64,000 nt of DNA, taken from the NCBI RefSeq assembly GCF_000026545.1, contig NC_011601.1. One strand, 5' to 3'. The position numbers were made by a program. This document shows positions 46,216 through 49,200 of this stretch, piece by piece. Source of the stretch: Escherichia coli O127:H6 str. E2348/69 (GTDB lineage: Bacteria; Pseudomonadota; Gammaproteobacteria; Enterobacterales; Enterobacteriaceae). Every line of letters starts with the position of its first letter. The stretch's first letter is position 1.

Positions 46216-49200
46216 TTATTTGCTCGCCAGGAATTTTCGGAATAAATATGCTTTTGCATAATTCGATATATAAAGACGATGTAGAGGAAAAGTAGCGAGA
46301 AAATCTGCATGGTTATGCATAACCATGCAGAAATGTAAATTTAATTTATGTCTAATTCTTTTATTTTTCTCTCTTTGCGTACTGTCAGCGTAGAACCCAT
46401 TGAAGCGGCGATGATAGCGCCGAGCGCCAGCAGCTGTATGGGTGTCAGTGTTTCTCCGAGGAAAATCATCCCGGAAACGGCAGCCAGCGCAGGTTCCATG
46501 CTCATTAGCGTACCAAATGTGCGTGTTGGCAAACGGGTGAGGGCAATCATTTCCAGCGAATAAGGCAGAGCGGTCGAGAGAATAGCGACAGCCAGACCCA
46601 ATGGAATAACCGACCAGTGCCAGAGTGCTTCACCAGCCTGAAGCGCTCCAATTGGCACGAAAATTAACGCTGCAATCAACGAACCAATTGCCACCGTCGC
46701 AGGACCATGTTCCGCTCCAGCGCGTTGCCCACTTAAAATGTAAATAGCCCAACAAGCCCCGGCCCCCAGTGCCAGCGCACAGCCGGTTAAATCGACATGG
46801 GAAACGTCTTGCCCCAGCGGTAGCAGGAACCACAGACCAAGAACCGCCAGCACAACCCAGACGAAATCTACCGGGCGACGAGAAGAGAACAGTGCCACCG
46901 CCAGTGGTCCGGTGAACTCCAGCGCCACCGCAATACCCAGCGGTACCGTCTGAATAGAAAGATAAAAAAGATAATTCATTCCACCCAGCGAAACGCCGTA
47001 AAACAACAGCGGTAATCGTTGCTCTTTGGCAAAGCGCAGTCGCCATGGCTTAAAGAACGCGATGAGGATCAGCGTGCCTAATGCAAGACGCAGCGCAGTG
47101 ACCCCCGGTGCGCCCACCAGAGGAAAAAGTGACTTAGCTAACGAGGCTCCACCCTGAATAGACGCCATGGCAACGAGCAATATGACTATTGGTAACCAGA
47201 CCGGCATTTTACGTAATGAACCAGGCATCCTTTCTCCCACAAATATCTAAACCTAAGTAAAGCGTGGAGTGTACTGGATATACCCAATGCTGGTTGAGCA
47301 TTTGTTGAAAAAATTTTCCCCCGTTTTGACTAAAATGCGCCAGGATTGATGGAATCATTAGTCTGGTGATTAGGAATAATCTGGATGAATGACAGGGAAA
47401 ACATGCGTAATACTTACGCAGTTCTCTGAAAAAGTGATTTAAATTTAGATGGATAGCGGTGTATGGAAACGTTCTGTTACATGAAATGGCCCGTTAGACA
47501 TCATAAATCGCGAAGAGTTTCCCATTAATTTTTGATATATTTAAAACTTAGGACTTATTTGAATCACATTTGAGGTGGTTATGAAAAAAATTGCATGTCT
47601 TTCAGCACTGGCCGCAGTTCTGGCTTTCACCGCAGGTACTTCCGTAGCTGCGACTTCTACTGTAACTGGCGGTTACGCACAGAGCGACGCTCAGGGCCAA
47701 ATGAACAAAATGGGCGGTTTCAACCTGAAATACCGCTATGAAGAAGACAACAGCCCGCTGGGTGTGATTGGTTCTTTCACTTACACCGAGAAAAGCCGTA
47801 CTGCAAGCTCTGGTGACTACAACAAAAACCAGTACTACGGCATCACTGCTGGTCCGGCTTACCGCATTAACGACTGGGCAAGCATCTACGGTGTAGTGGG
47901 GGTGGGTTATGGTAAATTCCAGACCACTGAATACCCGACCTACAAACACGACACCAGCGACTACGGTTTCTCCTACGGTGCTGGTCTGCAGTTCAACCCG
48001 ATGGAAAACGTTGCTCTGGACTTCTCTTACGAGCAGAGCCGTATTCGTAGCGTTGACGTAGGCACCTGGATTGCCGGTGTTGGTTACCGCTTCTAATCAC
48101 TTCGGTGATATAAAAAATCCGCCTCTCGGGGCGGATTTTTTTGTGCACAGAAAACCCCCAGCTAGGCTGGGGGTTCCGGAAAGCTTTCAGCTTTGAGCCA
48201 GTTATTAAAACCCCTTTTGATTTGTTAAAACACCTTGCGGTCTGGCAACTGCAAGTGTCAAACAAGAAATCAAAAGGGGGTCCCAATGGGGAACGAAAAG
48301 AGCTTAGCGCACACCCGATGGAACTGTAAATATCACATAGTATTTGCGCCAAAATACCGAAGACAGGTGTTCTACAGAGAGAAGCGTAGAGCAATAGGCT
48401 GTATTTTGAGAAAGCTGTGTGAGTGGAAAAGTGTACGGATTCTGGAAGCTGAATGCTGTGCAGATCATATCCATATGCTTGTGGAGATCCCGCCCAAAAT
48501 GAGCGTATCCGGCTTTATGGGATATCTGAAAGGGAAAAGCAGTCTGATGCTTTACGAGCAGTTTGGTGATTTGAAATTCAAGTACAGGAACAGGGAGTTC
48601 TGGTGCAGAGGGTATTACGTCGATACGGTGGGTAAGAACACGGCGAAGATACAGGATTACATAAAGCACCAGCTTGAAGAGGATAAAATGGGAGAGCAGT
48701 TATCGATTCCCTATCCGGGCAGCCCGTTTACGGGCCGTAAGTAACGAAGTTGGATGCAAATGTCAGATCGTGTGCGCCTGTTAGGGCGCGGCTGGTAAGA
48801 GAGCCTTATAGGCGCATTTGAAAAACCTCCGGCTATGCCGGAGGATATTTATTGTTTTAAGGTTTCGGGTCGAAAATATCGGTTCCGAGATGGTTGTAAT
48901 CCACCTTCTGTAACTGGAAGTTGGTGATGTATATCGGCCCGGCTTTCTTCTCAGATATAAACGGGTATTTGATATTTATTTCCTTCGCTTTAATTCCCGT
49001 CCACTGCGAGAAAAAGCCTAAGAAGTCATTGGCCGAGCGGCGGGCTTTAATCACCCGATGCGCTTTATCGTCGCTGGAAATGACCATAAAAGGCACCTGG
49101 AAATTTTGCTGATACTTATCATCATGGGCAAGGTATTGCACGTCTTTGCCGCGCTCTTTAAAGGCCAGACCGTGGTCGGAAAAGTAAACCAGCGAGAAGC

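What the first reader, a model, noticed from the sequence alone, without database searches (positions are those of the whole stretch)
48145..48850. IS200 copy with intact tnpA inserted between the ompX terminator and the opgE 3' end
The element starts immediately after the ompX terminator T-run and ends just before the opgE stop codon. It has the IS200 hallmarks: left-end terminator-like hairpin, a 5'UTR stem that can occlude the ribosome-binding site, a 152-aa HuH transposase, and a right-end hairpin. IS200 is patchily distributed in E. coli, so this is strain-specific accessory DNA. The left-end hairpin probably insulates tnpA from ompX read-through.
Basis: partly seen in the sequence, partly recalled or inferred. 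Interest (0 to 1): 0.4.

Follow-up and report, generated by a model that had tools for sequence, protein, structure and literature searches.

The report
Annotated IS200 copy behind ompX terminator
This is an ordinary, already annotated copy of the small mobile element IS200 in E. coli strain E2348/69; it sits exactly behind the ompX transcription terminator because this kind of element appears to choose terminator-like hairpins followed by a T-run as landing sites.

Summary
The window is E. coli O127:H6 E2348/69 (100% identity), and RefSeq already annotates the gene as an "IS200C family transposase". Empty-site comparison puts the element at 48143-48853 (711 bp, no target duplication).

All claimed hallmarks are present:
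- a left-end hairpin;
- a 5'UTR stem that hides the ribosome-binding site (Rfam STnc490, 146 bits);
- an intact 152-aa transposase with the H61-x-H63 motif and Y125;
- a right-end hairpin.

IS200 is patchy in E. coli: 1951 of 5426 complete genomes hold a near-full copy. This exact junction occurs only in three O127:H6 assemblies.

The position is not a coincidence. In 131 distinct IS200-group insertion sites, 128 left flanks end in TT, with consensus TTTNTT. That consensus matches the element's own right end, TTTATT. Almost all sites lie just after a GC-rich hairpin plus T-run.

Other E. coli lineages carry IS200 in the same ompX/opgE terminator but 3 nt further on, one with a divergent IS200. 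This implies at least 3 independent hits.

On the opposite strand, the right-end hairpin looks like a replacement terminator for opgE.

Verdict: a known element, low interest. The target rule is the only part worth following up.

The parts
47581..48096 (+). ompX CDS, the upstream co-oriented gene whose terminator is the insertion target
   Evidence: ORF; Pfam OMP_b-brl and Ail_Lom; RefSeq ompX WP_001295296.1
48112..48142 (.). ompX/opgE bidirectional intrinsic terminator: A-run, GC stem, T-run. It stays intact on the ompX side of the insertion.
   Evidence: Folds (13-bp stem, z -5.0 as RNA and -6.6 as DNA); present unchanged in the empty sites L001 and L011
48137..48142 (+). Target hexamer TTTTTT, immediately 5' of the insertion point. 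It fits the consensus TTTNTT|.
   Evidence: Empty-site reconstruction; consensus from 131 sites
48143..48853 (+). IS200C element, 711 bp, no terminal inverted repeats, no target-site duplication
   Evidence: the left-end sequence is unique in the window
48153..48175 (+). Left-end perfect hairpin (AACCCCCAGC tag GCTGGGGGTT). In Salmonella IS200 it is a bidirectional terminator; in this family it is also the presumed TnpA-binding hairpin.
   Evidence: Folds; function taken from PMC4513863 and PMC5435999 (by homology, not tested here)
48153..48276 (+). Match to Rfam RF01405 (STnc490), covering the left-end hairpin and the 5'UTR of tnpA
   Evidence: 146.4 bits against a gathering score of 56, full-length 1-124
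48211..48279 (+). [quoted passage not shown]
   Evidence: Fold (-37.2 kcal/mol, z -5.64); matches nts 69-138 of IS200 in PMC4513863 with a 1-nt numbering offset
48205..48295 (-). [quoted passage not shown]
   Evidence: Coordinates transferred from PMC4513863 (5' ends at IS200 nt 153/154) using the offset found. No promoter was called by the scan. Inferred, not shown.
48286..48744 (+). tnpA, 152-aa Y1 HuH transposase, intact (H61-I-H63, Y125)
   Evidence: Y125 is the residue mutated to give the catalytically dead control in PMC4513863
48826..48844 (.). Right-end hairpin (CCTCCGGC tat GCCGGAGG). On the minus strand it is followed by TTTTTC, which makes it a terminator-like site 13 nt downstream of the opgE stop codon.
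   Evidence: The terminator scan flags it on both strands; folds
48848..48853 (+). Right terminal hexamer TTTATT (right cleavage site), the same motif as the target consensus
   Evidence: The right end is invariant in all copies and followed by variable flanks; consensus
48857..50440 (-). opgE CDS, the convergent gene, now separated from its former terminator by the element
   Evidence: Pfam Sulfatase

Best explanation
The region is an autonomous IS200C element of the IS200 group of the IS200/IS605 family. It carries only tnpA and sits in the O127:H6 E2348/69 lineage.

How it got there. It was inserted, without a target duplication, directly 3' of the T-run of the ompX/opgE bidirectional terminator. 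By analogy with IS608 and ISDra2, the Y1 HuH transposase excises the tnpA-sense ('top') strand as a single-stranded circle and pastes it into single-stranded DNA on the lagging-strand template. Insertion is 3' of a short target sequence. For this group the target is TTTNTT lying a few bases after a GC-rich hairpin. That geometry copies the element's own right end (hairpin, then ATATTTATT). The A-runs just 5' of both hairpin feet (GAAAA in the left end, GAAAAA in the right end) are the likely guide sequences that pair with the T-rich cleavage sites.

How it stays quiet. Transcripts that pass the ompX terminator meet the left-end hairpin terminator. The 5'UTR stem hides the ribosome-binding site. 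The antisense RNA art200 and Hfq add further repression.

Effect on neighbours. Both genes stay intact. ompX keeps its hairpin and T-run. opgE loses its terminator but meets the right-end hairpin plus TTTTT on its own strand 13 nt after its stop codon.

Shown here: identity, boundaries, intact catalytic residues, the structures, the empty sites, the target motif and the strand orientation. Inferred: the single-strand mechanism, the guide pairing, and the terminator and sRNA activities of this particular copy.
For: Identity.
- The window is 100% identical to E2348/69, where the CDS is annotated as an IS200C transposase.
- Pfam Y1_Tnp 1.7e-37.
- Solved homologues include the S. tokodaii, ISHp608 and ISDra2 transposases, E 1e-22 to 1e-14.
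- H61-I-H63 and Y125 are present.
- Rfam STnc490 scores 146 bits.

Boundaries and absence of a duplication.
- Empty sites L011 (TTTTTTT^GTTTTAAGG) and L001 (TTTTTGTT^TTTAAGG) are rebuilt exactly by removing GTGCACAG...TATT.

Structures.

Target rule, from 131 distinct left flanks in at least 8 element subtypes. The organisms include E. coli, Y. pestis, Vibrio, Brenneria, Dickeya, Edwardsiella and several metagenome-assembled genomes (MAGs).
- 128 of 131 flanks end in TT.
- Positions -5, -2 and -1 are T in 126, 129 and 130 flanks.
- 94% have at least 5 T in the last 8 nt, against 6% of control positions.
- Mean fold energy of the last 45 nt is -18.4 against -8.5 kcal/mol.
- A perfect stem plus T-run occurs at 83 of 131 sites against 1 of 575 controls.
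- In two tandem pairs (L083, L130) a left end abuts the right end of another copy.

Orientation.
- GC skew of the + strand is positive in 6 of 8 bins, so the tnpA-sense strand is the lagging-strand template, as the family rule predicts (PMC5027513).

Repression mechanisms come from Salmonella and E. coli experiments (PMC4513863, PMC5435999).

Against: - Nothing contradicts the identification.
- No transposition of this copy was observed, and IS200 is described as essentially dormant (PMC5435999, PMC12594629).
- The target rule rests on genomic insertions that survived selection. The sample is dominated by Y. pestis (54 of 131 sites) and is restricted to elements that share one exact 23-nt left-end hairpin.
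- The guide-pairing idea is only an analogy with IS608. Because the guide is a run of A, the pairing register cannot be read from the sequence.
- The scan found no sigma-70-like promoter for tnpA or art200, although published work says the tnpA promoter is weak and undefined.
- This copy has C39 where the other copies checked have S or R. It has L89 where four of the nine copies compared have P. The effect of these substitutions is unknown.
Confidence: 0.9

Rival explanations
1. The association with the terminator comes from selection only. IS200 inserts at any T-rich site, and only copies that land in the neutral gap behind terminators survive. Such copies would also be transcriptionally silenced, which is the reading given in bioRxiv 10.1101/2025.07.22.666184.
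For: - Insertions inside genes would be purged.
- The preprint reports terminator-like sequences over-represented upstream of IS200/IS605 elements and reads this as limiting transposase expression.
- My sample contains only fixed genomic copies.
Against: - The junction is precise to the nucleotide: TT| in 128 of 131 sites and T at -5 in 126 of 131. The tail after the last paired G/C is narrowly distributed (median 7 nt, interquartile range 6-8). Selection for neutrality would not fix these.
- Of the control positions, only 1 in 575 had a T-rich tail plus a perfect stem (about 6% had the T-rich tail alone), yet 83 of 131 IS sites had both.
- A right end of another copy is used as a target in L083 and L130.
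- The same 22-nt spacer was hit at two positions 3 nt apart, both fitting TTTNTT.
Confidence: 0.12
2. The copy did not transpose into this site in the O127:H6 lineage. It arrived by homologous recombination of an ompX-opgE segment from another strain that already carried it.
For: - E. coli recombines frequently.
- Identical IS200 copies sit at the type-2 position in strains whose flanks differ by up to 5 and 7 substitutions, for example L012 against L015. That could reflect transfer of the occupied allele.
Against: - The E2348/69 junction (TTTTTTT|G...TATT|GTTTT) was found at 100% identity only in three O127:H6 assemblies among 5426 genomes.
- All six other occupied sites examined have the insertion 3 nt further downstream and an IS that differs at 7 or 30 positions.
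- In any case the donor would itself have needed a transposition event.
Confidence: 0.05
3. The element is kept mainly as a host-useful regulatory RNA module (the 5'tnpA sRNA and art200) and no longer acts as a mobile element, as proposed for Salmonella.
For: - In Salmonella the 5' part of the tnpA transcript is processed into an sRNA that regulates invF and other virulence genes, and deleting all copies slows growth (PMC5435999, PMC12594629).
- The corresponding region here matches the Rfam model over its full length at 146 bits.
Against: - tnpA is intact, with its catalytic residues.
- Copy number per genome ranges from 1 to 36 places among E. coli genomes.
- At least three independent insertions into this one terminator show that the element has moved in E. 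coli.
- No sRNA target in enteropathogenic E. coli (EPEC) is known, and none was tested here.
Confidence: 0.1

Closest known systems
IS200 of Salmonella enterica (founding member; ISfinder IS200 group) and its E. coli variant IS200C
   Same: - Size: about 707-711 bp.
- A single 152-aa tnpA with Y125.
- Left-end terminator hairpin at nt 11-33 (published 12-34).
- 5'UTR stem at nt 69-137 (published 69-138) hiding the Shine-Dalgarno sequence AAGGGGGU.
- A right-end hairpin, and no duplication.
- RefSeq names the protein as IS200C family (PMC4513863).
   Different: Nothing of substance differs. This copy has private substitutions: C39 in TnpA, and 7 nt differences from the commonest copy at the neighbouring insertion point. 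ISfinder could not be queried, so the IS200C name rests on the RefSeq annotation.
IS1541 of Yersinia pestis (IS200 group)
   Same: - An identical 23-nt left-end hairpin and the same right end (...CCGGAGGATATTTATT).
- The same left junction rule: hairpin plus T-run, then TT|GTGCCCAG.
   Different: The first 10 nt of the left end differ at one position (GTGCCCAGAA against GTGCACAGAA). Copy number is far higher: 54 distinct sites were retrieved from one genome.
IS608 (H. pylori) and ISDra2 (D. radiodurans), the mechanistic paradigms of the IS200/IS605 family
   Same: - A Y1 HuH transposase homologous by sequence (2a6m 1.1e-18, 2xm3 4e-16).
- Subterminal hairpins and no inverted repeats.
- Insertion 3' of a short specific sequence without a duplication.
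- The top strand lies on the lagging-strand template (PMC5027513).
   Different: - IS608 and ISDra2 also carry tnpB.
- Their targets (TTAC, TTGAT) are plain tetra- or pentanucleotides with no adjacent hairpin requirement reported.
- Here the target is T-rich, lies next to a hairpin, and is the same motif as the right end.
Bacterial class C group II introns (from my own knowledge, not tested here)
   Same: They are mobile elements that home to the 3' side of intrinsic terminator stem-loops, a neutral site recognised as a DNA structure.
   Different: They are retroelements built around a ribozyme and a reverse transcriptase, with an unrelated mechanism and unrelated proteins.

Membership tests
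IS200/IS605 family, IS200 group | Encodes a Y1 HuH transposase (Pfam PF01797) of about 150 aa with the HuH motif and a catalytic tyrosine | tested here: met
   Y1_Tnp 128.7 bits, E 1.7e-37; H61-I-H63 and Y125; PDB homologues 2ec2, 2a6m and 2xm3
IS200/IS605 family, IS200 group | tnpA only, with no tnpB or iscB; total length about 0.7 kb | tested here: met
   The element is 711 bp. Its only long sense-strand ORF is tnpA; the other ORFs listed there overlap tnpA or run in from the flank.
IS200/IS605 family, IS200 group | No terminal inverted repeats; different subterminal hairpins at the left and right ends | tested here: met
   Left-end hairpin 48153-48175 and right-end hairpin 48826-48844, with unrelated sequences
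IS200/IS605 family, IS200 group | Insertion without a target-site duplication, with the left end 3' of a conserved short target sequence | tested here: met
   Two empty-site types are rebuilt exactly by removing the element; TTTNTT| consensus in 131 sites
IS200/IS605 family, IS200 group | Active (top) strand lies on the lagging-strand template | tested here: met
   Positive GC skew of the + strand in 6 of 8 bins, cumulative +0.22. Gene order glnH-dps-rhtA-ompX-opgE as in the K-12 right replichore (replichore assignment from my own knowledge). This is one copy only, so it is consistent rather than a test of bias.
IS200 proper (Salmonella / E. coli IS200C) | Left-end bidirectional terminator hairpin plus a 5'UTR stem-loop sequestering the Shine-Dalgarno sequence (the region covered by Rfam RF01405) | tested here: met
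   RF01405 146.4 bits against a gathering score of 56, full length; folds; positions agree with PMC4513863 within 1 nt
IS200 proper (Salmonella / E. coli IS200C) | At least 95% nucleotide identity to the ISfinder reference IS200C | not testable with these tools
   ISfinder is not available. As a substitute, RefSeq/PGAP names WP_000526113.1 'IS200C family transposase', and copies so named at other loci matched at 98.6-99.6% nucleotide identity.
IS200 proper (Salmonella / E. coli IS200C) | Transposase-dependent mobility, termination by the left-end hairpin, and expression of art200 | not testable with these tools
   Known only from experiments on Salmonella IS200 in Salmonella and E. coli (PMC4513863, PMC5435999). 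Past mobility in E. coli is inferred from at least 3 independent insertions at this terminator.

The most novel reading that the evidence does not exclude
IS200-group transposases pick intrinsic terminators as landing sites by recognising, in single-stranded DNA, a GC-rich hairpin followed after a few bases by TTTNTT. That structure mimics the element's own right end (hairpin, then ATATTTATT).

This would be a structure-plus-sequence mode of target choice not described for IS608 or ISDra2. It would explain three things:
- why IS200 is nearly always harmless;
- why copies stack in tandem;
- why the ompX/opgE bidirectional terminator has been hit at least three separate times in E. coli, despite the element's reputation for being immobile.

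The element also carries terminator-like hairpins at both ends, so it restores termination for both convergent genes it separates.

The probability given is that this is both true and not already described at this resolution. Older IS200 and IS1541 papers and the 2015 family review could not be read. A 2025 preprint already reports the statistical association with terminators.
Probability: 0.3. Interest if true: 0.5.

Novelty: already known. Interest (0 to 1): 0.2.

Why it matters
The finding itself matters little. It is a correctly recognised, already annotated insertion sequence that leaves both neighbouring genes intact. It is useful mainly as a lineage marker for O127:H6 E2348/69.

The broader pattern it led to has some value.
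- A nucleotide-precise target rule (hairpin plus TTTNTT|) would allow prediction of IS200 and IS1541 insertion sites.
- It would explain the element's harmlessness and persistence without invoking host benefit.
- It would identify terminators as recurrent hotspots.
- It would give a simple substrate for the biochemistry of IS200 TnpA, which has never been worked out as it has for IS608.

Tried and rejected
Rejected: empty sites lack the 711 bp.
- **Target-site duplication.** None. A shared G at both junctions in this window is explained by the element's own first base, as the other junction types show.
- **A second copy in the window.** None.
- **Promoter scan for tnpA and art200.** No sigma-70-like site passed the threshold in 47300-49100, so promoters remain undefined here. 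By eye there is a possible art200 promoter on the minus strand (TTTACA, 18 nt, TAAGCT, about 48330-48301). I do not rely on it.
- **Weak Rfam hits over the ompX terminator and left-end hairpin** (STnc370, ncS025, RNAI, P9, Leu_leader, rnk_pseudo). All are below their gathering scores and are generic terminator-hairpin look-alikes. Rejected.
- **The idea that the upstream hairpin belongs to the element.** Rejected: the hairpins differ from site to site, and the ompX hairpin is present in empty sites.
- **Literature on the IS200 and IS1541 target.** These could not be read: Beuzon and Casadesus 1997 (PMC146608), Odaert 1998 (PMC106867), Cornelius 2009 (PMC2681732), Barabas 2008 (PMC2680152) and He et al. 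2015. Full-text searches found only the 2025 preprint on terminators upstream of ISs.
- **Listing all IS200 copies of E2348/69.** Only the count of places per record was obtainable (8, against 7 in two other O127:H6 assemblies).
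Full report
**1. What is there**

The window is 100% identical to the chromosome of enteropathogenic E. coli O127:H6 strain E2348/69 (NZ_CP059840.2). The gene order is glnH-dps-rhtA-yliM-ompX-[tnpA]-opgE-mntS-mntR.

- ompX occupies 47581-48096 (+) and opgE occupies 48857-50440 (-).
- Between them RefSeq annotates tnpA (48286-48744, WP_000526113.1) as 'IS200/IS605-like element IS200C family transposase'.
- The 152-aa product matches Pfam Y1_Tnp (E 1.7e-37).
- It also matches the solved transposases of Sulfolobus, ISHp608 and ISDra2 (E 1e-22 to 1e-14).
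- It has H61-I-H63 and Y125. Y125 is the residue whose Y125F change was used as the catalytically dead control in PMC4513863.

**2. Exact boundaries**

Eight IS200C copies at unrelated loci all share ...TTG-TGCACAGAAAACCCCC on the left. These lie downstream of dgcZ, garD, carB, plaP, pqqU, sseA and others. On the right they share ...CCGGAGGATATTTATT followed by unrelated sequence.

- An IS-free strain with the same flank haplotype (AR_0017, L011) reads GGCGGATTTTTTTGTTTTAAGG.
- The window reads GGCGGATTTTTTT[GTGCACAG...GGATATTTATT]GTTTTAAGG.
- The K-12-type empty site (L001) reads GGCGGATTTTTGTTTTTAAGG.
- Six other occupied strains read ...TTTTTGTT[GTGCACAG...TATT]TTTAAGG.

Both comparisons are satisfied only if the element is GTGCACAG...TATT. 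That is 48143-48853, 711 bp, with no target duplication. The description is right: the element sits directly after the ompX T-run (48136-48142) and 3 nt before the opgE stop codon (48857-48859).

**3. Internal anatomy**

- The left end has a perfect 10-bp hairpin at 48153-48175.
- The 5'UTR forms a long stem-loop at 48211-48279 that encloses the Shine-Dalgarno sequence AAGGGGGT (48274-48281). Its energy is -37.2 kcal/mol, z -5.6, and none of 200 shuffles folded as well.
- The right end has an 8-bp GC hairpin at 48826-48844, followed by ATATTTATT.
- Counted from 48143, these lie at nt 11-33, 69-137 and 684-702, with the ATG at nt 144. This agrees within one nucleotide with the published map of Salmonella IS200: terminator at nt 12-34, stem-loop at nt 69-138 (PMC4513863).
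- Rfam RF01405 (STnc490) matches 48153-48276 over its full length at 146 bits, against a gathering score of 56.

Published experiments show four repression mechanisms (PMC4513863, PMC5435999):
- the left-end hairpin is a bidirectional Rho-independent terminator that stops about 85% of incoming transcripts;
- the 5'UTR stem reduces translation about 20-fold;
- a roughly 90-nt antisense RNA (art200) represses further;
- Hfq represses independently.

These functions are transferred to this copy by homology. None was tested here.

**4. Distribution**

- A copy covering at least 80% of the query is present in 1951 of 5426 complete E. coli genomes, with 1 to 36 places per genome. 'Patchy' is therefore correct.
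- The E2348/69 chromosome has 8 places matching the left end. Two other O127:H6 assemblies have 7.
- A query across the left junction is covered at 80% or more in 79 genomes, but at 100% identity only in the three O127:H6 assemblies.
- The six others I examined carry the element 3 nt further downstream (TTTTTGTT|).
- Five of them carry one IS variant that differs from the window's at 7 of 710 positions.
- The sixth (L013) carries a variant that differs at 27-30 positions.

This single 22-nt spacer has therefore been hit at least three times independently.

**5. Why exactly there**

All the E. coli copies lay just after a hairpin plus T-run. At eight of the nine loci (this one plus eight others) a co-oriented annotated gene ended 30-130 bp upstream; the ninth has no annotated gene there. 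I therefore scanned one genome per species for the left-end hairpin and collected 131 distinct left flanks.

The organisms were E. coli, Y. pestis IS1541, Vibrio ruber, V. penaeicida, Brenneria, Dickeya, Edwardsiella, Pluralibacter, Budvicia and several metagenome-assembled genomes (MAGs).

| Measure | IS200-group sites | Control positions in the same loci |
|---|---|---|
| Flank ends in TT | 128 of 131 | not measured |
| T at positions -5, -2, -1 | 126, 129, 130 of 131 | not measured |
| At least 5 T in the last 8 nt | 94% | 6% |
| Mean fold energy of the last 45 nt | -18.4 kcal/mol | -8.5 kcal/mol |
| Perfect stem plus T-run | 83 of 131 | 1 of 575 |

- The consensus is TTTNTT|, with position -3 free.
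- The tail after the last paired G/C has a median of 7 nt (interquartile range 6-8).
- The element's own right end has the same geometry: GC hairpin, 9 nt, ending TTTATT|.
- In two Y. pestis loci a left end abuts the right end of another copy (L083, L130). A right end can therefore serve as a target.
- Both insertion points in the ompX terminator (TTTTTT| and TTTGTT|) fit the consensus.

In IS608 the target TTAC is read by a guide tetranucleotide AAAG just 5' of the left-end hairpin foot (PMC5027513). Here the bases 5' of both hairpin feet are GAAAA (left end, conserved in every subtype) and GAAAAA (right end). These could pair with the T-rich cleavage sites. This is an inference.

The + strand has positive GC skew. 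The tnpA-sense strand is therefore the lagging-strand template, as expected for the family (PMC5027513).

**6. Consequences at this locus**

- ompX keeps its hairpin and seven Ts. Any read-through meets the left-end hairpin 11 nt into the element.
- opgE formerly used the same hairpin in the opposite direction. Its stop codon is now followed after 13 nt by the right-end hairpin, which on the minus strand reads CCTCCGGCATAGCCGGAGG-TTTTTC. The terminator scan flags this site.
- The element therefore probably replaces the terminator it takes away from opgE, and shields tnpA from antisense transcription. This is inferred and not shown.

**7. Rivals**

- **Selection alone** could enrich insertions behind terminators. 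A 2025 preprint that reports terminator-like sequences upstream of IS200/IS605 elements reads them as limiting transposase expression. Nucleotide-level precision of the junction, the rarity of hairpins at T-rich control positions and the tandem copies argue for mechanistic targeting.
- **Arrival by recombination** rather than transposition is unlikely, because the junction is unique to O127:H6.
- **A purely regulatory, immobile element** (PMC12594629) is hard to reconcile with an intact tnpA and repeated independent insertions.

**8. Verdict**

Both the observation and the interpretation are correct. The object is a known, annotated IS200C copy, so it rates as already known and of low interest.

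The one thing worth following is the target rule and the terminator hotspot. I could not check whether it is already in the older IS200 and IS1541 literature, which is not held.

Noticed in passing
window 48112-48142 / 48854-48859; loci L012-L017: The ompX/opgE bidirectional terminator is a recurrent IS200 landing site. 79 of 5426 complete E. coli genomes have it occupied. E2348/69 has the insertion after TTTTTTT. Six other strains have it 3 nt further on (after TTTTTGTT, 1 nt from the opgE stop). One of them (L013) carries an IS200 differing at 27-30 of 710 positions. This means at least 3 independent events.
   Followed up: partly
L083 (about 280-370) and L130, Yersinia pestis NCTC5923: Tandem IS1541 copies: the left end of one copy directly abuts the right end (...CCGGAGGATATTTATT|GTGCCCAG) of another. 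The element's own right end therefore works as a target.
   Followed up: partly
L018-L021, L023, L025-L046, L062-L078 (MAG contigs): The exact 23-nt enterobacterial IS200 left-end hairpin occurs many times, usually about 90 nt from contig ends. The MAGs are labelled Bacillota, Peptococcaceae, Mailhella/Desulfovibrio, Oxalobacter, Saccharibacteria and Elusimicrobiaceae. Each group has its own 10-nt leader and its own terminator-like flanks. This is either wide horizontal spread of one IS200 subgroup or binning artefacts.
   Followed up: no
window 48153-48276 (+): Rfam RF01405 'STnc490' matches the tnpA-sense strand and includes the left-end terminator hairpin. The literature, however, describes STnc490/art200 as the RNA antisense to the tnpA 5'UTR (PMC4513863). 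The Rfam model seems to represent the sense 5'UTR rather than art200.
   Followed up: partly
NZ_CP059840.2 versus NZ_LT827011.1 and NZ_LT903847.1: The three O127:H6 assemblies differ in the number of places matching the IS200 left end (8, 7 and 7). This may reflect a recent gain or loss, or an assembly difference.
   Followed up: no
window 14484-14628 (+): Molybdenum cofactor riboswitch (RF01055, 103 bits), above its gathering score.
   Followed up: no
window 34859-34929 (-): naRNA4 / CssrE nucleoid-associated RNA family match (RF02564, 72.7 bits), probably a REP-type repeat.
   Followed up: no
Yersinia pheL-pheA (literature, PMC3082878): IS1541 is reported between pheL and pheA in Yersinia, the region where the pheA attenuator terminator would lie. 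This fits the terminator-targeting rule and suggests attenuators can be hit too.
   Followed up: no
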